This document shows positions 55,057-60,726 of a DNA stretch of 64,000 nt, piece after piece. The position numbers and the translations under genes are program-made. The DNA comes from a virus, in IMG/VR virus record IMGVR_UViG_3300018080_000175, positions 2,940 through 66,939 of that record; one strand, given 5' to 3'. Numbering within the stretch: the stretch's first letter is position 1; each line of letters opens with the position of its first letter. The notes below the pieces were generated by a model that saw nothing but the letters and a program-made list of their open reading frames with translations, was not told where the DNA came from and did no database searches.

Positions 55057-55235
55057 TATTTGTACAGTCTTACTACCTAAAAATTTTAAAAAAAATCGGT
55101 CATATGAGATTTCGGATGATAGTCTTCGGATGATAGTCTTCGGATGATAGTCTTCGGATGATAGTCTTCGGATGATAGTCTTCGGATGATAGAAAATCTA
55201 TTTGTACAGTCTTACTACCTAAAAATTTTAAAAAA
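55057..55235. repeat. 37-bp direct repeat flanking the tandem array
   Basis: TATTTGTACAGTCTTACTACCTAAAAATTTTAAAAAA at 55057-55093 and 55199-55235. Confidence 0.92.
55111..55192. repeat. 14-bp tandem repeat TTCGGATGATAGTC x5 plus a 12-nt partial copy
   Basis: Read directly from the sequence; there are no spacers. Confidence 0.95.
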
Positions 55236-55339: not shown

Positions 55340-56190
55340 AATTTTTATTTTTTTCTTGACAACCAAAATTTAATTTTAAATTTAAAATAAATTAATTTTT
55401 ATTTTTTTTATTTGGTTTTATTTTATTTTTTTATTGACAAACAAAATTCTTTTAAAATTTTACCAATGATTTTTATTTTCTTTCTATGATAATTTATTTT
55501 TATTCAATGTAATATTTTTCTTGACAACCAATTTTATTTTAAAATCGTGCTCAAAAAGCTTTGATTTTAGCGTTAAAAATTTGATTTAAAATTAATTCTT
55601 ATTTTTTATTAATTTATTTTAATTTTTCTTATGTGAAACAACGTGTGAAACACAGCTCCTAACCTATTGATTTTATTAGATAAAAGTCGAATTTTGAGAT
55701 ACAAACTTTTTACATGTTAGTGTATGCATAACGTATGAAAACGCTTTAAATCGACTAAAAACAAGCACCATTTTGATTTATAGTAATTATAGTTAATTTT
55801 TTTTAATCGTTTTTATGTTCATAGGGGTATGATTTTTGCAACATGCGTGCCTATGTGTGCCTGCCCCTGCCCGTCTTCATTATTTTTTTGAATTTTAAAA
55901 TTTCAATGGTTTTTATTTTGTGGGAAAAATATTGATAGGATTTTATTTTTTGATACGATTATTTCTTATTTTTATTTAATTTTTTTTATTTTCTTCTAAG
56001 TAATTGAATTTAAAGCAAAATTCAACATTTTTAAAATTAATTTTTAATTTTTTTTAAATTTATTTTCTAAGTAACTGAATTTACAGCATAAATTTTTTTT
56101 ATGAGATGAACGATTTATTTTTTATCAATAAATTCAATATGTTGCAAAGATTAAAAAGTGTTTTTATCAATAAATTCAATAGGTTGCATA
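55340..56190. other. extremely AT-rich non-coding region with clustered IHF-like sites
   Basis: WATCAANNNNTTR matches: 55660-72 (exact, minus strand), and near-matches at 55997-56009, 56068-80, 56132-44 and 56174-86. Confidence 0.55.
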
Positions 56191-56193
56191 TGC

Positions 56194-56222
56194 TTGACTT
56201 ATTTTCTTAAAAAGTTTATTCT
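56194..56222 (+). promoter_or_regulatory. sigma70-type early promoter
   Basis: TTGACT-N17-TATTCT with AT-rich upstream DNA. Confidence 0.65.
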
Positions 56223-56880: not shown

Positions 56881-56942
56881 ATAGTTTTTCTATTAGTTGG
56901 GGCTAAAAAAAAATTAAAAAAATTAAATTAAGGAGCTTAAAA

Positions 56943-57521
56943 ATGGCTAAATCAATCAAACGTAAAAATGTTAAAAAATCTGTATCTGTAAAAGTTGGTG
57001 ATAAAATGGTTAAAACTACTTGCAAGACTTTTGGTGCACCTTTGAAAAATGAGAAAGGTGAATTTGTATCAAAATGTAAGACTTGTTCTGTGAAAAAATC
57101 AGATGTTTGTGCCGCATGTTCTGAGAAATTTATTGAATTAAATCCTCCTGAGAAAAAAGTGGTTACAAAAAGAATTGCAAACAATGATATGGAGAATCTG
57201 GTGGTTGCTATCAGTGAAAATTCTTTACTTTCTCGAAAAGCATTGGTTGAGAAAATGGCAAAGGATTCTGCCCGAAGTGAAGGTGGTTGGAAAACAATGG
57301 TCGGTGCTTGTTTTCTTGCTATTAAACATCTTGAAGGCAAGGGCAGTGGTAAAGGTGCTTATCATTGGGCGGCACAGGGAATTAAAGAAGGAATTGTTGA
57401 CTTCAAAGCGTTGAAAAAATATGTGGCTAAGAAAGAAAACAAAAAAGAGGGCATCATTGGTAGGTCGGTTCAATATGTTTATACTGTAAATCGTTTTATG
57501 CCTGAGAAAACCGAAGCATAA
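56943..57521 (+). CDS. basic protein with Cys4 motif (putative DNA-binding early protein)
   Basis: CKTFG..CKTC..CAAC; TAAGGAG RBS. Confidence 0.7.
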   Translation: MAKSIKRKNVKKSVSVKVGDKMVKTTCKTFGAPLKNEKGEFVSKCKTCSVKKSDVCAACSEKFIELNPPEKKVVTKRIANNDMENLVVAISENSLLSRKALVEKMAKDSARSEGGWKTMVGACFLAIKHLEGKGSGKGAYHWAAQGIKEGIVDFKALKKYVAKKENKKEGIIGRSVQYVYTVNRFMPEKTEA

Positions 57522-57540
57522 GAAAAATTAATTCTTAATC

Positions 57541-57562
57541 GAGGGGTTGAAAAATACCCCTC
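57541..57562 (+). terminator. GC hairpin preceding twister 1
   Basis: GAGGGGT-TGAAAAAT-ACCCCTC. Confidence 0.7.
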
Positions 57563-57563
57563 A

Positions 57564-57618
57564 TTATTAAACCTACTATGAACGGTCCAAAGTCCGTCTT
57601 TGAAAAGGTGATGGGTAA
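57564..57618 (+). ncRNA. twister ribozyme 1 (type P1)
   Basis: P1 TTAT/GTAA, UAA loop, P2 ACCT/AGGT, T2 AC/GT, P4 ACGG/CCGT, T1 CCA/TGG; predicted cut 57568/57569. Confidence 0.8.
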
Positions 57619-57641
57619 AAATTTGAAAAATGGGAGAAAGA

Positions 57642-57782
57642 ATGAAAAATTTAATGTGGGGATTTTACTGGATTTTTACAAGTTCTTTTCTTATGTGGCA
57701 AATTGAAACAAAGGGAATTTTTGCACAATTTTTAAAATGTGTTTTTGAAATTCTTTTAAGAAAAGAACTTACTTGGAAATAG
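57642..57782 (+). CDS. 46-aa hydrophobic peptide (not in ORF track)
   Basis: MKNLMWGFYWIFTSSFLMWQIE..; GGGAG RBS. Confidence 0.55.
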   Translation: MKNLMWGFYWIFTSSFLMWQIETKGIFAQFLKCVFEILLRKELTWK

Positions 57783-57825
57783 GATTGAAATTGGATTGAA
57801 AACTGAAAAAAGGGGGTCCAAAAAA

Positions 57826-57939
57826 ATGACTATTAAAGAGCTTAAAAAAATGACTGAAAAAATGACTGAGGAAGAAAAACAGGAATTATATTATATTCTT
57901 GGTATTAAAATTAAAAGAATTGCTTGCGGTGATATTTAG
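57826..57939 (+). CDS. 37-aa peptide (not in ORF track)
   Basis: MTIKELKKMTEKMTEEEKQELYYILGIKIKRIACGDI, behind the repeated leader. Confidence 0.55.
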   Translation: MTIKELKKMTEKMTEEEKQELYYILGIKIKRIACGDI

Positions 57940-57976
57940 AAATTGGATCAAAAACTGAAAAAAGGGGATCGGAAAA

Positions 57977-58678
57977 ATGAAGGAAGAAAAAAAGCGGATT
58001 ATTGAAAAAATTCAAAAAATAATGGTACAGGCAAAAGACCAGGAAGGAACACCGGAAGGGGATACGTTTAAAAAACATGCCGCTCTTTTGATGGCAAAAT
58101 ACAGAATCCAAGAAACTGAGATTGACCTGGAAACTGATAATTTCATCTTGGATACTTTCAAATTTTACAAAGATGGGTCAAAACATCCACAATGGGTGTC
58201 CAGCATTGTTTCCACCTTTGCTCATACATTTGATTGTAAAGTAGTTTTCCGAACTTTGCCTGAATATCGAGAATGGGAGTTGATTGGAACATTTTCAGAT
58301 GTGGAAACAAGTCTGTACTTTATAGAGGTAGTTTGCGGGCATATTGAAAAGGAATGCTTTAAGACCTTTCCACAGAAAACCTATTCTGGAAAAAGACAAC
58401 AATTGGGTAATGTTGCGGCGGATGTTATTTGGAATAGGGCTTGGGAATTGAAACACCAGATGGATCAGACAATTCATGCAGATAAAAATTGTACCGCTCT
58501 GGTTGTGGTCAAAGAAAAGGAGATCGAGGAAGCGGTTGCTGAAATGTATCCAAAACTGAAAAAAGGGAAGTCTGAGAAAAGGGATATGCCGTCTGATATG
58601 AAAACCTGGGCGGCTGGTCAAGAGGCTGGAGAAACTGCTCCACTGAATTTCGGAATTGAGGAGGAAACTGCGGCATGA
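57977..58678 (+). CDS. DUF2786-domain protein
   Basis: IIEKIQKIM..A..TPEG..A..LMAKYRI N-terminal motif; ends ETAA. Confidence 0.78.
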   Translation: MKEEKKRIIEKIQKIMVQAKDQEGTPEGDTFKKHAALLMAKYRIQETEIDLETDNFILDTFKFYKDGSKHPQWVSSIVSTFAHTFDCKVVFRTLPEYREWELIGTFSDVETSLYFIEVVCGHIEKECFKTFPQKTYSGKRQQLGNVAADVIWNRAWELKHQMDQTIHADKNCTALVVVKEKEIEEAVAEMYPKLKKGKSEKRDMPSDMKTWAAGQEAGETAPLNFGIEEETAA

Positions 58679-58911
58679 AAAGATACTGGATCGAAATCAA
58701 ATGGATAGATCCGAACGGGAATGGGGTTATTTCCGAATACACATTCAAAGCAAACACAATAAAGGGGGCAAGGAAAACTGCTGAAAAAGCTTTTTGGAGG
58801 GAGAAAAAAGTAACCTGGGGCGGTACAAAAGATATTGAAATAAGAGGTACTGAAACTGTGCCGATGGAAAGCGGTCTCCAAAATGAAAGAACATGGAGAA
58901 ATCCAAAATGA
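58675..58911 (+). CDS. hypothetical protein
   Basis: ATGA-coupled, GAGGAGG RBS. Confidence 0.6.
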   Translation: MKRYWIEIKWIDPNGNGVISEYTFKANTIKGARKTAEKAFWREKKVTWGGTKDIEIRGTETVPMESGLQNERTWRNPK

Positions 58912-58927
58912 GTTGAAAACTGAAAAA

Positions 58928-58950
58928 AGGGGGTCGGAAAACGGCCTCCT
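58928..58950 (+). terminator. GC hairpin preceding twister 2
   Basis: AGGGGGTCG-GAAAA-CGGCCTCCT. Confidence 0.7.
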
Positions 58951-59001
58951 GTTAAATCTGCCGATGGCGGTCCAAAGCCCGCATAAAAAAGATGATGGAC
59001 A
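58950..59001 (+). ncRNA. twister ribozyme 2 (type P1)
   Basis: TGT-TAA-ATCT-GCC-GATGGCGG-TCCA-AAGC-CCGCAT-AAAAA-AGAT-GA-TGG-ACA; predicted cut 58953/58954. Confidence 0.88.
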
Positions 59002-59031
59002 AATTGAAAACTGAAAAAAGGGGGTTGGAAA

Positions 59032-59340
59032 ATGTCTGAAAAATCAGATTTAAGATCCTACATAGGATGTGTGGTACGATTTAAAAAAGAAGGTGCTACT
59101 GAAAAGTTTGGAAATCTTGCCGTAAATAGTTCTTATTTGATCAAAGATACTATGGAAGATTATAAAGGTAAAAAATGCATTAGGGGACATTCGGTGGAAT
59201 TCAGTGACACTGTTGGAAGATGCATTGATCCGGATGATATTGAGATTGTAAGTAAGGATCCCGATTTTGATCCAAATCATTATCAAACGTATGACGATTA
59301 TATGGATGATTCATTTGAGCAGGGATGGGATGTAAATTAG
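59032..59340 (+). CDS. hypothetical protein
   Basis: 102-aa ORF behind the repeated leader. Confidence 0.65.
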   Translation: MSEKSDLRSYIGCVVRFKKEGATEKFGNLAVNSSYLIKDTMEDYKGKKCIRGHSVEFSDTVGRCIDPDDIEIVSKDPDFDPNHYQTYDDYMDDSFEQGWDVN

Positions 59341-59407
59341 AAAAAGGGGGTCCAAAACCTCTTAACATTATATAACGAACGAAAACTCAAAAATGAGGAG
59401 AAGTAAA

Positions 59408-60313
59408 ATGGAAAACGTTAAAAATGAGATCTTGGAAAAATGTGACAAAAAGGGTGTTAAAATTTCTGGACTCGAACAAGTACCAACAATTATTCAGGGT
59501 CGTCCATTGTTTGATTTTGCTGGAGTTGAAACTGACCTGCTGAAAAATCTGGGACAGGATCCGGATGATCTTTTCGAAGCCACTGGAAAATTCAACATTG
59601 CCGTATTCCCTGATGGTAGAGTTGAGGGTCTGAAAACAGTATCCAAACAATATAAGCTGGTACAGCATTTGGATGCAATCAACAAAACGATTGACTATGT
59701 GCCTGATGGATTTGATCTAAAGGATATTAACGTAAATACTTCCCTTGACGGTGGTCGGACCTGGGCGACTTTCAATTCCAAGAAAAAAACGGAAATCAAA
59801 AAAGGGGATCTCGTTTCCTTACAGGCTACCATGCAAAATTCTTGCGATACTTCAAAATTATATCGGATGATGTTAAGAGCCATGCGGTTGGTCTGTTCAA
59901 ATGGAATGGTTGCTCCTGATTCTCGATTTGACCACCAAACAGTTCGCAAACTTCACAAAGGTAGTTTAAATCTGGAAAATCAGATCAGCGGTTTCTTTGA
60001 AAACATGGAGCAAAACATTGCCGCAATTGATGGTTGGAAAAAATACACTCAAAAATCCCTGAAAGCACCGGATATTGATACTATTTTCCAGCAAATGGAA
60101 GTTGGTCCACGTGTTCAGGAGGAACTTTTGACTACCTCTTTAAGAGGGCAGGCGACAAATGTCCAGTCTTTACTTGACCAAAATGAATTGACTGCCTGGG
60201 ATTTATATAATTCCTTCACTCAGCGGATCACCGATTCCGATTCTGTTGAATCTGCAAAAATCGAAGCTGGTGGAAAAGTATCTGCTTATTTTGATAGAAT
60301 GCTTGCGGCATAA
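59408..60313 (+). CDS. DUF932/DUF945-family phage/plasmid protein
   Basis: VSKQYKLVQH..DGGR..QNSCDTS..RLVCSNGM..H.G..TAWDLYNSFT; ends MLAA. Confidence 0.8.
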   Translation: MENVKNEILEKCDKKGVKISGLEQVPTIIQGRPLFDFAGVETDLLKNLGQDPDDLFEATGKFNIAVFPDGRVEGLKTVSKQYKLVQHLDAINKTIDYVPDGFDLKDINVNTSLDGGRTWATFNSKKKTEIKKGDLVSLQATMQNSCDTSKLYRMMLRAMRLVCSNGMVAPDSRFDHQTVRKLHKGSLNLENQISGFFENMEQNIAAIDGWKKYTQKSLKAPDIDTIFQQMEVGPRVQEELLTTSLRGQATNVQSLLDQNELTAWDLYNSFTQRITDSDSVESAKIEAGGKVSAYFDRMLAA

Positions 60314-60329
60314 ATCTTAAATCCAATAA

Positions 60330-60351
60330 AGGGGGTTGAAAAATACCCCCT
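60330..60351 (+). terminator. GC hairpin preceding twister 3
   Basis: AGGGGGT-TGAAAAAT-ACCCCCT, with the same loop as 57541-62. Confidence 0.7.
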
Positions 60352-60408
60352 GTTTTTAAACCAGCCCATGACGGTTCAAAGCCCGTATTCAAATGGTGAT
60401 GAAAAACA
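60351..60408 (+). ncRNA. twister ribozyme 3 (type P1)
   Basis: P1 TGTTTT/AAAACA, UAA loop, P2 ACCA/TGGT, T2 GC/GC, P4 AT-ACGG/CCGT-AT, T1 TCA/TGA; predicted cut 60357/60358. Confidence 0.88.
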
Positions 60409-60438
60409 AAAATTAAAAAAAACAAAGGAGAACCGATC

Positions 60439-60726
60439 ATGAAATGGAATCTTGTATCAATAATGGATGAACTTGCGGATAAAATGGAAACTGAGGCATT
60501 GGATGCGATTGCTTGCGGTTCATGGGGACGGAGCGAAACAATGAATCAGCTTTTGATAGTTGATTGCCTTAAATCTGGCTGGACTCTTGATGATTTTTTC
60601 ATGGAATTCAAAGACAGTAATGTGATGGATCCCTGGAAAATTAAGAAAGATATGGAATGTCTGATCGCCTCCAAACAAATTGAGGAAATGTTCGAAAAAT
60701 ATGGAGAAGAAAACAAATGTTTGTAA
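60439..60726 (+). CDS. hypothetical protein
   Basis: AAGGAG RBS. Confidence 0.65.
   Translation: MKWNLVSIMDELADKMETEALDAIACGSWGRSETMNQLLIVDCLKSGWTLDDFFMEFKDSNVMDPWKIKKDMECLIASKQIEEMFEKYGEENKCL

What the first reader, a model, noticed from the sequence alone, without database searches (positions are those of the whole stretch)
57541..60408. Three hairpin-plus-twister ribozyme cassettes cut the early operon into ~1.4-kb pieces
Seen: three intergenic elements (57564-618, 58950-59001, 60351-408) share the core TAA-[P2]-RCY..CGGT-YCA-AAGY-CCG..[P2']-GA-TGR. Their stems covary: P2 is ACCT/AGGT, ATCT/AGAT and ACCA/TGGT; pseudoknot T2 is AC/GT versus GC/GC; pseudoknot T1 is CCA/TGG versus TCA/TGA; and P1 differs in all three. 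Each lies directly 3' of a GGGG/CCCC hairpin shortly after a stop codon. Established: this is the P1-type twister fold, which cleaves U^A to leave a 2',3'-cyclic phosphate and a 5'-OH. Predicted cuts at 57568, 58953 and 60357 give segments of about 1340 nt (from the 56194 promoter), 1385 nt and 1404 nt. Inference: the phage processes its early polycistron without proteins into near-equal units, each with a hairpin-protected 3' end and a 5'-OH end that resists 5'-monophosphate-dependent decay. Twisters are known from bacteria and phages; the regular tandem punctuation of a coding operon is the unusual part.
Basis: partly seen in the sequence, partly recalled or inferred. Interest (0 to 1): 0.88.

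Follow-up and report, generated by a model that had tools for sequence, protein, structure and literature searches.

The report
Three twister ribozymes in phage operon
Three copies of a known self-cutting RNA (the twister ribozyme), each just behind a hairpin, sit between genes of an uncultured sediment phage and most likely chop one long message into shorter ones, a layout known in phages since 2011.

Summary
The three + strand intergenic elements (57564-57618, 58949-59002, 60353-60406) are the only Rfam matches with E <= 1 in the window. All three are full-length matches to type-P1 twister (RF03160) at 32.9-42.5 bits. That is below the 67.2-bit gathering score because the optional P3 stem is absent. 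P1, P2, P4 and both pseudoknots covary among the three copies. They also covary across 30 similar twisters from 28 other viral contigs: 96.1% of cells are paired, T1 and T2 are 100% paired, and 0 of 500 shuffles reach the observed values. A hairpin abuts each ribozyme. Upstream structure of this kind is also enriched in the relatives (10 of 25, p = 8e-5), and it resembles the "P0" stem already described for hatchet ribozymes.

Processing of a polycistronic phage message is the standard, still unproven, hypothesis (PMC3088659, PMC6765202). The "near-equal 1.4-kb units" rest on two intervals, and relatives do not share that spacing. The 56194 promoter is no better than chance. Tandem ribozymes between phage genes are not unusual: 5 of 12 related loci hold two or more. 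This scan has reported such arrays on other DNA before. No RNA data exist for this phage.

Verdict: a new member of a known kind, of modest interest.

The parts
56943..57521 (+). Upstream gene of cassette 1 (192 aa; no PHROG or Pfam family). It is the last gene of the RNA piece that would end at cut 1.
   Evidence: ORF list; no family.
57541..57562 (+). Hairpin 1 (P0-like): 7-bp stem GAGGGGU/ACCCCUC with an 8-nt loop. It lies 19 nt after the stop codon and 1 nt before P1.
   Evidence: Minimum-energy fold. Upstream fold of -15.7 kcal/mol, reached by 0.00 of 378 control windows. The 18-nt core is identical to hairpin 3.
57564..57618 (+). Twister ribozyme E1 (type P1, no P3). Predicted cut U57568^A57569. 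This is the weakest copy: T2 is A-U/C-G, and U replaces the usual C after T2.
   Evidence: RF03160 at 32.9 bits, E = 1.6e-4 on 3.4 kb and 2.9e-3 on the window, model positions 1-68. R1 at 73.4 bits (by construction). The fold gives P1, P2 and P4. The position after T2 is C in 28 and U in 4 of 32 distinct rows.
57643..58911 (+). Gene block between cuts 1 and 2. It holds small ORFs (57630/57643-57782 and 57827-57939), the DUF2786/DUF7168 protein (57977-58678, phrog_421) and a 78-aa ORF (58675-58911).
   Evidence: start codons read.
58928..58950 (+). Hairpin 2 (P0-like), 7-9 bp with G-U pairs. Its 5' arm is the 3' part of a copy of the repeated leader GAAAACUGAAAAAAGGGGG (58915-58933).
   Evidence: Folds (58930-58948, -10.4 kcal/mol, control fraction 0.03); leader copies.
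58949..59002 (+). Twister ribozyme E2 (type P1, no P3). Predicted cut U58953^A58954. This is the best-scoring copy.
   Evidence: RF03160 at 42.5 bits, E = 2.8e-7 on 3.4 kb and 5.3e-6 on the window, model positions 1-68. The fold gives P1, P2 and P4.
59032..60313 (+). Gene block between cuts 2 and 3: a 102-aa ORF (59032-59340) and the DUF932 protein (59393 or 59408 to 60313).
   Evidence: PF06067, E = 5.7e-18.
60330..60351 (+). Hairpin 3 (P0-like): 7-bp stem AGGGGGU/ACCCCCU with an 8-nt loop, followed by GUUUUU. That run is also the 5' strand of P1, so the site scores as terminator-like.
   Evidence: Terminator scan; fold (-13.5 kcal/mol, control fraction 0.01).
60353..60406 (+). Twister ribozyme E3 (type P1, no P3). 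Predicted cut U60357^A60358. T1 is UCA/UGA.
   Evidence: RF03160 at 36.9 bits, E = 1.2e-5 on 3.4 kb and 2.2e-4 on the window, model positions 1-68; fold (z = -3.55).
60439..60726 (+). First gene after cut 3 (95 aa). Its ATG lies 32 nt after the ribozyme, with AAAGGAG upstream.

Best explanation
The three elements are genuine type-P1 twister self-cleaving ribozymes of a short form that lacks the optional P3 stem. In this form pseudoknot T1 reads CCA/UGG, or UCA/UGA, instead of the Rfam consensus CCC/GGG.

They would be transcribed as part of the + strand (DNA-metabolism side, probably early) polycistronic message of a tailed phage from sediment. Once folded, each would cut at its U^A step. That splits the message into gene blocks:
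- ...56943-57521
- 57643-58911
- 59032-60313
- 60439 onward

Each upstream product would end 5-6 nt after a stable hairpin and carry a 2',3'-cyclic phosphate. Each downstream product would begin with a 5'-OH on the still-folded ribozyme body (P2, P4, T1, T2), 24-32 nt ahead of the next start codon. The likely pay-off is that gene blocks from one transcription unit get separate lifetimes or translation yields.

Shown here: the sequence, fold, covariation, position and strand of the ribozymes, and the hairpin association. Inferred from the family's established chemistry: cleavage, the end chemistry, any stabilising effect and the timing.
For: 1. Family match. The three elements are the only Rfam matches with E <= 1 in 64 kb. 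All three hit RF03160 over the full model. The whole 66,939-b record has just these three.
2. Why the score is low. The deficit against the gathering score is explained by deletion of the P3 hairpin. P3 is an optional stem according to the twister review PMC5408937 (section 8).
3. Covariation. The alignment holds 33 matches to my model R1: 3 from the window and 30 from 28 other viral loci, giving 32 distinct rows. The proposed structure, with T1 and T2 added by hand and absent from the search model, pairs 96.1% of cells against 75.4% in shuffles. 12 of 16 pairs change on both sides, and 0 of 500 shuffles reach the observed paired percentage or covariation score. Versions with the 3' partners slid by 1-3 columns pair 30-43%. 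T1 and T2 are 100% paired. P4's outer pair is standard in 31 of 32 rows, with A-U, G-C and C-G all present.
4. Conserved core. UAA at the cut site is in 32 of 32 rows, and this was not required by the fetch pattern. GA after P2 is also in 32 of 32, but here the pattern did require it.
5. Unconstrained folding. The minimum-energy folds of all three cassettes give hairpin + P1 + P2 + P4.
6. Context in the window. The hairpins start 16-19 nt after a stop codon, and each ribozyme ends 24-32 nt before the next ATG.
7. Context in relatives. The relatives also lie between same-strand ORFs.
8. Hairpin association. A stable upstream fold is enriched in relatives: 10 of 25 de-duplicated sites are at least as stable as the best 10% of control windows (binomial p = 8e-5), and upstream is more structured than downstream (Wilcoxon p = 1e-5).
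9. Precedent. Tandem hammerheads that flank genes in prophages cleave in vitro, and one triple set also in vivo. They were read as processing long phage transcripts (PMC3088659). The same role is suggested for twisters in the review PMC6765202.
Against: - No hit reaches Rfam's gathering score.
- There is no cleavage assay, and no RNA data exist for this phage, so activity and in vivo processing are untested.
- E1 departs from the consensus at the position after T2 (U instead of C; U occurs in 4 of 32 rows) and scores lowest, so it may be slow or dead.
- P1 stems are short and A/U-rich (UUAU/GUAA, UGU/ACA, UUUU/AAAA).
- That the stretch is one transcription unit is assumed. The consensus scan cannot place promoters here.
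- The alignment used for pair counts was fitted to P1, P2 and P4 by the model.
- The loci were fetched with a pattern that fixes the P4 core and most of L4. Only P1, P2, the outer P4 pair, T2's outer pair and T1's outer pair are free tests.
- The biological benefit of such processing has not been shown for any phage ribozyme (PMC6765202; PMC5408937).
Confidence: 0.75

Rival explanations
1. The hairpins are the working parts. They act as intrinsic terminators or RNA-stabilising hairpins that end most transcripts. The twisters then act only on read-through RNA, trimming it to the same hairpin-ended 3' end and insulating the downstream message. The gene blocks would be mostly separate transcription or termination units, not one message cut into pieces.
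For: - Hairpin 3 followed by GUUUUU passes the terminator-like scan.
- The 18-nt hairpin core GGGGUUGAAAAAUACCCC occurs exactly in 31 other viral loci, which collapse to far fewer sequence families. Many of these have longer stems and T-runs, and none is followed by a credible match to twister model R1. The single hit in those loci has E = 0.46 and lies elsewhere. Such a hairpin can therefore stand alone.
- The U-run after the hairpin doubles as the 5' strand of P1.
Against: - Terminator-like sites in this region are no more frequent than in shuffles: 4 found against 5.4 +/- 2.5 expected.
- Hairpins 1 and 2 are followed by AUUAUUAA and CUGUUAAA, which are poor U-tracts and were not called.
- If termination were efficient the ribozymes would rarely be made, yet their stems are kept by compensatory changes.
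- This reading partly overlaps the best explanation and does not exclude it.
Confidence: 0.15
2. The ribozyme-bounded segments (57569-58953 and 58954-60357) carry a 5'-OH and a 2',3'-cyclic phosphate. A host RtcB-type ligase joins these ends into circular mRNAs. The similar 1.4-kb sizes would reflect that process.
For: - The end chemistry made by twisters is the substrate chemistry of RtcB (general knowledge). RtcB is widespread: the family rings in 10 of 14 control genomes.
- Two consecutive segments are each bounded by ribozymes on both sides.
- A sibling note of this scan raised the same idea (e1-6190907).
Against: - The phage record has no RtcB (0 matches; the record is 59% complete).
- By direct reading, the 3' tail of segment 1 (CUGUU) cannot form a hybrid P1 with the 3' strand left at that segment's 5' end (GUAA). 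Segment 2 manages 3 of 4 pairs. No end-joining helix is therefore built in.
- Each 3' end sits behind a hairpin, which fits linear stabilisation.
- Most related records have a single hit to model R1 (24 of 29), and a single ribozyme cannot bound a circle.
- Perreault et al. looked for circular or spliced products from tandem hammerheads and found none (PMC3088659).
Confidence: 0.04
3. The elements are decayed or inactive look-alikes, relics of duplicated cassettes with no present catalytic role.
For: - All three score below Rfam's gathering score.
- E1 has a rare base after T2.
- P1 stems are weak.
- E1 and E3 share an identical 18-nt hairpin core, which points to duplication.
Against: - Differences between the three copies fall in stems as compensatory pairs (P2, the outer P4 pair, T1, T2). 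Decay would not produce that.
- The UAA, GA and L4 core positions are kept.
- By recall, the P3-less form is that of the Oryza sativa twister used for crystal structures. The review reached names that construct, but I did not read its sequence there.
Confidence: 0.06

Closest known systems
Type-P1 twister self-cleaving ribozyme (Rfam RF03160; class described by Roth et al. 2014, which I did not read; reviewed in PMC5408937)
   Same: - P1, P2 and P4 stems and the T1 and T2 pseudoknots.
- UAA cleavage-site junction, GC of L2, the GGU..AAGC.CCG loop L4, and GA after P2.
- Termini in P1.
- Located near phage genes.
   Different: - No P3 stem, so the score is 32.9-42.5 bits against a 67.2-bit gathering cut-off.
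- T1 reads CCA/UGG or UCA/UGA instead of the consensus CCC/GGG, a compensated change.
- In E1, T2 reads AC/GU.
- None of 15 similar viral twisters in 12 related loci reaches the gathering score either, so routine annotation misses this short phage form.
Clustered hammerhead ribozymes flanking genes in prophages (Perreault et al. 2011, PMC3088659)
   Same: - Several self-cleaving ribozymes on the coding strand flank single genes or short gene blocks of a phage.
- They are proposed to cut long phage transcripts into operon- or gene-length mRNAs.
- The neighbouring genes are small and of early or anti-restriction type there (ardA). Here they are DUF2786/DUF7168 and DUF932.
   Different: - The ribozyme class is twister, not hammerhead.
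- Cleavage was shown experimentally for those arrays and not for this one.
P0 hairpin 5' of the cleavage site (about 90% of hatchet ribozymes, PMC4604424; P0 is also listed as an optional twister stem in PMC5408937)
   Same: A hairpin without conserved sequence lies a few nucleotides 5' of P1 and of the cut, so it ends up at the 3' end of the upstream product. It is present at 3 of 3 sites here and is enriched in relatives.
   Different: - The text I read does not say where twister's P0 lies. Equating the hairpins here with it rests on the hatchet description and on recall.
- A role for P0 has not been established.

Membership tests
Twister ribozyme, type P1 (RF03160) | [quoted passage not shown] | tested here: met
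   The Rfam alignments cover model positions 1-68 with P1, P2 and P4 paired. The one exception is a C.A mismatch at the outermost P1 pair of E2. The minimum-energy folds give the same stems. Across 32 distinct rows P1 is 86.3% paired, P2 97.6% and P4 100%.
Twister ribozyme, type P1 (RF03160) | Two pseudoknots: T1 (L4 with L1) and T2 (L4 with L2). | tested here: met
   In the window T1 is CCA/UGG, CCA/UGG and UCA/UGA, and T2 is AC/GU, GC/GC and GC/GC. Across relatives both are 100% paired, with changes on both sides in 3 of 3 T1 pairs and 1 of 2 T2 pairs. Neither pseudoknot was part of the search model.
Twister ribozyme, type P1 (RF03160) | Strongly conserved nucleotides in L1 and L4, and a U-A cleavage step with a conserved A. 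| tested here: met
   UAA, GA and the GGU(C/U)CAAAG(C/U)CCG loop are present in all three copies. UAA is in 32 of 32 rows. Departures from the Rfam consensus are compensated: the third T1 pair is A-U, and T2 of E1 is A-U. The exception is the U after T2 in E1.
Twister ribozyme, type P1 (RF03160) | Score at or above Rfam's gathering cut-off (67.2 bits). | tested here: not met
   0 hits at gathering. The scores are 42.5, 36.9 and 32.9 bits. The shortfall comes from the missing optional P3 hairpin. This is a curated operational cut-off, not a structural criterion.
Twister ribozyme, type P1 (RF03160) | Mg2+-assisted self-cleavage that yields a 2',3'-cyclic phosphate and a 5'-OH. | not testable with these tools
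Clustered ribozymes that process phage polycistronic transcripts (Perreault 2011 type arrangement) | Two or more self-cleaving ribozymes in close proximity on the coding strand, flanking single genes or short gene blocks of a phage or prophage. | tested here: met
   Three ribozymes lie within 2.8 kb between + strand ORFs. The contig encodes terminase, portal, major head and major tail proteins.
Clustered ribozymes that process phage polycistronic transcripts (Perreault 2011 type arrangement) | The ribozymes and the flanked genes lie on one transcript that is cut in vivo. | not testable with these tools
   There are no transcript data. The promoter and terminator scans are at chance level.
P0-type hairpin accessory to a self-cleaving ribozyme | A hairpin a few nucleotides 5' of P1 and the cleavage site, without sequence conservation (PMC4604424). 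| tested here: met
   Hairpins end 0-1 nt before P1 at all three sites. In relatives 10 of 25 de-duplicated sites have an unusually stable upstream fold (p = 8e-5), and the hairpin sequences are unrelated to each other.

The most novel reading that the evidence does not exclude
The hairpin-plus-twister unit may be a self-contained, duplicating module that forms RNA 3' ends. Phages would use it in place of, or on top of, intrinsic terminators, so that stable hairpin-capped ends are made whatever the polymerase does. E1 and E3 share an identical 18-nt hairpin core, and E2 lies between two copies of a 28-nt leader. A bolder version adds that the doubly bounded 1.4-kb segments are sometimes closed into circular mRNAs by a host RtcB.
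Probability: 0.08. Interest if true: 0.65.

Novelty: new member of a known kind. Interest (0 to 1): 0.28.

Why it matters
The biological purpose of bacterial and phage twister and hammerhead ribozymes is still called speculative in the reviews I read (PMC5408937, PMC6765202). This locus is a clean small example: three copies, each with a hairpin, with defined gene blocks between them. It could serve as a test bed for two questions. Does ribozyme cutting set different lifetimes for the parts of a phage message? Is the upstream hairpin (P0) the 3'-end protector?

There is also a practical point. This short P3-less phage form scores well below Rfam's twister-P1 gathering cut-off. That holds for the 3 copies here and for 15 of 15 twister-P1 matches in 12 related loci. 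Standard annotation therefore misses it, and twister counts in phage genomes are underestimates.

The locus does not open a new kind of biology. The arrangement has been in print since 2011, and this scan has met it repeatedly.

Tried and rejected
1. Rfam at gathering threshold: 0 hits in the window. The E-value mode was needed to see the elements.
2. Close relatives of the phage. The search for related loci with the DUF932 protein found none in viral contigs. blastn of 56900-60700 against 50,697 phage records gave no match. The strict cassette pattern gave 0 viral loci. Syntenic conservation of the three cassettes could therefore not be tested. Relatives of the ribozyme itself came only from a looser pattern.
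3. RNA evidence. The look-up of sequencing runs listed one DNA holder, possibly the source sample, and no RNA holder. Read laying was not used because contigs of a DNA run cannot show cleavage.
4. Other ribozyme classes in the window: none at E <= 1. Further copies of this twister type in the window: none (model R1).
5. The leader motif GAAAACTGAAAAAAGGGGG found only 2 viral loci, both giant-virus bins. Neither had a match to twister model R1 at E <= 1, and I took them no further.
6. The hairpin 18-mer in viral contigs gave 31 loci. None has a twister next to it. The hairpin is therefore not a marker of the cassette.
7. RtcB in the phage record: none. This is uninformative, because the record is 59% complete and hosts commonly carry RtcB.
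8. The equal-spacing idea is rejected as unsupported (spacings).
9. The promoter at 56194 is rejected as a chance-level match.
10. Papers I could not read because they are not held: Roth 2014 (PMC3867598), Weinberg 2015 (PMC4509812 and its DOI) and Felletti 2017 (PMC5785228). What they say about twister P0, ribozyme-associated genes and 3'-UTR ribozymes is cited only through the reviews or from recall. Supplements were closed. The supplementary figures of Perreault 2011 may bear on how similar the published arrays are.
11. They returned the reviews and methods papers cited here and no paper on this exact arrangement. I do not claim that none exists.

Full report
**What is there**

The window is bases 2940-66939 of a 66,939-base IMG/VR virus record, classed as linear with an estimated completeness of 59%. 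The one listed sequencing run that holds the stretch is a sediment metagenome.

The minus strand, from about 20.9 to 54.4 kb, carries the structural genes: terminase large subunit, portal, major head protein and a major tail protein. The plus strand carries DNA-metabolism genes: an ATP-dependent DNA ligase, an exonuclease and a thymidylate-synthase-like protein. The three elements lie near the head of the plus-strand block, after a roughly 2-kb A/T-rich region with few ORFs. Calling the block 'early' is a reasonable inference from this layout. It is not a result.

**Checking the observation**

At Rfam's gathering thresholds nothing in the window matches. With E-value reporting, the only three matches with E <= 1 in 64 kb on both strands are to twister-P1 (RF03160). 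All are on the + strand and all cover model positions 1-68.

| Element | Coordinates | Bits | E (whole window) |
|---|---|---|---|
| E2 | 58949-59002 | 42.5 | 5.3e-6 |
| E3 | 60353-60406 | 36.9 | 2.2e-4 |
| E1 | 57564-57618 | 32.9 | 2.9e-3 |

The alignments show why they miss the 67.2-bit cut-off. The 16 positions of the P3 hairpin are deleted and replaced by a 5-nt linker. P3 is one of the optional stems of the class. P1, P2 and P4 are the essential ones, and two pseudoknots and at least ten conserved nucleotides complete the definition (PMC5408937, section 8).

- P2 is ACCU/AGGU, AUCU/AGAU and ACCA/UGGU.
- The outer pair of P4 is A-U, G-C and A-U.
- T2 is AC/GU in E1 and GC/GC in E2 and E3.
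- T1 is CCA/UGG in E1 and E2 and UCA/UGA in E3.
- P1 is different in each copy.

Relative to the Rfam consensus (CCC/GGG), the third T1 pair is itself a compensated change, A-U. Unconstrained minimum-energy folding of each cassette returns hairpin + P1 + P2 + P4. The cut sites implied by the alignment are U57568^A57569, U58953^A58954 and U60357^A60358, which lie 1385 and 1404 nt apart.

**Evidence from elsewhere**

No close relative of the phage could be found. A loose pattern for the L4 loop and the T1 3' strand fetched 54 viral loci. A covariance model built from the three window copies (R1) matched 30 sites in 28 of those loci at E <= 0.02.

I counted pairs on that alignment of 32 distinct rows, with the two pseudoknots written in by hand. 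They were not in the model, so they are a fair test. The results are:
- 96.1% of cells form standard pairs, against 75.4% in shuffles.
- 12 of 16 pairs show changes on both sides.
- The covariation score is 0.533 against 0.146 in shuffles.
- 0 of 500 shuffles reach the observed values.
- Sliding the 3' partners by 1-3 columns drops pairing to 30-43%.
- T1 and T2 are 100% paired.

P4's outer pair is standard in 31 of 32 rows, with three Watson-Crick types, and UAA is present in 32 of 32.

Two caveats apply. The fetch pattern fixes the P4 core, most of L4 and the GA step. The alignment was also fitted to P1, P2 and P4. The free tests are P1, P2, the outer P4 pair, the outer T2 pair and the outer T1 pair, and all of them pass.

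I conclude that these are real members of the twister fold, of a short phage-borne form. Rfam's model scores 15 such sites in 12 related loci at 37.5-61.8 bits, and none reaches the gathering score. Routine annotation therefore misses this form.

**The hairpins**

Each ribozyme is preceded by a 7-9-bp G/C-rich hairpin that starts 16-19 nt after the upstream stop codon and ends 0-1 nt before P1. After cleavage the upstream RNA would end 5-6 nt past the hairpin.

Hairpins 1 and 3 share an identical 18-nt core, so at least these two cassettes are duplicates of one unit. The 5' arm of hairpin 2 is the end of a copy of a repeated leader, GAAAACUGAAAAAAGGGGG. That leader has 5 copies where 0.04 are expected. 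Elsewhere it sits just ahead of start codons.

The association is not peculiar to this phage. In the relatives, the 45 nt upstream of the ribozyme fold unusually well. 10 of 25 de-duplicated sites fall in the best 10% of control windows from the same locus (p = 8e-5). The mean is -10.8 kcal/mol upstream against -4.5 downstream (Wilcoxon p = 1e-5). For that count I left out L036, whose upstream flank runs off the locus, and the near-duplicates L026, L012, L034 and L016.

[quoted passage not shown] P0 is also listed among twister's optional stems (PMC5408937). That text does not say where it lies, so the equation is partly from recall.

The same 18-nt hairpin core occurs exactly in 31 other viral loci without a twister beside it, often as a longer stem followed by a T-run. 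Such hairpins can therefore work alone, probably as terminators or stabilisers.

**How it most likely works**

Established chemistry of the class gives a 2',3'-cyclic phosphate on the upstream fragment and a 5'-OH on the downstream one (PMC8782182 abstract; PMC5408937). Placed here, that would cut one plus-strand message into four parts:
- a piece ending after gene 56943-57521;
- a piece carrying two small ORFs, the DUF2786/DUF7168 gene and a 78-aa ORF;
- a piece carrying a 102-aa ORF and the DUF932 gene;
- the rest of the operon.

Each upstream piece gets a hairpin near its 3' end. Each downstream piece starts with the folded ribozyme body, 24-32 nt ahead of the next start codon. Both features would be expected to slow exonucleolytic and 5'-end-dependent decay. 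That is inference.

[quoted passage not shown] It came with in vitro cleavage of three tandem sets and in vivo cleavage of a triple set around ardA (PMC3088659). A 2019 review repeats the reading for twisters and says the purpose is still to be defined (PMC6765202).

**What does not hold**

The 'near-equal units' rest on two intervals. Of 29 other viral records searched whole with R1, 24 had one match, one had none, and four had two. The spacing in those four was about 3.1 kb, 2.4 kb, 305 nt and 276 nt. The first segment depends on a promoter call at 56194, which is one of 32 sigma-70-like matches where shuffles give 37.8 +/- 5.4.

The claim that tandem punctuation is unusual is contradicted by the 2011 paper. 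It is also contradicted, in which 5 of 12 related loci hold two or three ribozymes, including one with a twister and two twister-sisters within 900 nt. This scan has also already reported such arrays on other DNA, from two up to twelve ribozymes per operon. Those notes are unchecked by me.

**Rivals**

- Terminators with ribozymes acting on read-through RNA. Hairpin 3 plus GUUUUU is terminator-like, and the hairpin stands alone elsewhere. The other two sites lack a U-tract, and the reading overlaps mine.
- Circular mRNAs. The chemistry is possible, but there is no RtcB in the record, no built-in end-joining helix, and most relatives have single ribozymes.
- Dead relics. The compensatory pattern argues against this.

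No RNA data exist for this DNA, so none of these can be settled here.

**Verdict**

These are new members of a known ribozyme class in a known kind of arrangement. The useful by-products are two. First, this P3-less phage form falls under Rfam's cut-off. Second, there is a statistical link between twisters and an upstream P0-like hairpin.

Noticed in passing
window 57798-57816, 57950-57968, 58551-58569, 58915-58933, 59006-59024: The leader GAAAACTGAAAAAAGGGGG occurs five times on the + strand, with 0, 2, 3, 0 and 0 mismatches, where 0.04 copies are expected. Three copies end 9-11 nt before an ATG, so the G-run probably serves as the ribosome-binding site. One copy lies inside the DUF2786 gene. 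Two copies flank twister E2 as a roughly 28-nt direct repeat, as if the ribozyme had been inserted or the leader duplicated around it.
   Followed up: partly
window 57543-57560 and 60332-60349; loci L058-L088: The exact 18-mer hairpin core GGGGTTGAAAAATACCCC also occurs in 31 other viral loci. By eye these fall into roughly ten sequence families. Most have extended stems and T-runs and none has a twister. It is a recurrent stand-alone terminator-like hairpin in unrelated phages.
   Followed up: partly
window 55100-55190: There is a tandem repeat of the unit GATGATAGTCTTCG (about six copies). It lies between two copies of a roughly 45-nt direct repeat (...TTGTACAGTCTTACTACCTAAAAATTTTAAAAAA...) in the divergent intergenic region between the structural and DNA-metabolism modules.
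   Followed up: no
window 55340-56200: This very A/T-rich 0.9-kb stretch has repeated TTGACAACCAA and 'ATCAATAAATTCAATA(G/T)GTTGCA' motifs. It is a possible promoter, operator or origin region. The sigma-70 consensus scan is at chance level here.
   Followed up: no
L043 (23-103, 397-478, 855-907, all minus strand): One related viral locus holds two twister-sister ribozymes (61.0 and 67.5 bits, above the gathering score of 34) and one P3-less twister within 900 nt. This is a mixed-class ribozyme array.
   Followed up: no
window 56943-57521: The 192-aa product of the first gene upstream of E1 has a Lys-rich N-terminus with several Cys pairs (CKT..., CKTC, CAAC) and no Pfam or PHROG family. It may be a small zinc-binding early protein.
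   Followed up: no
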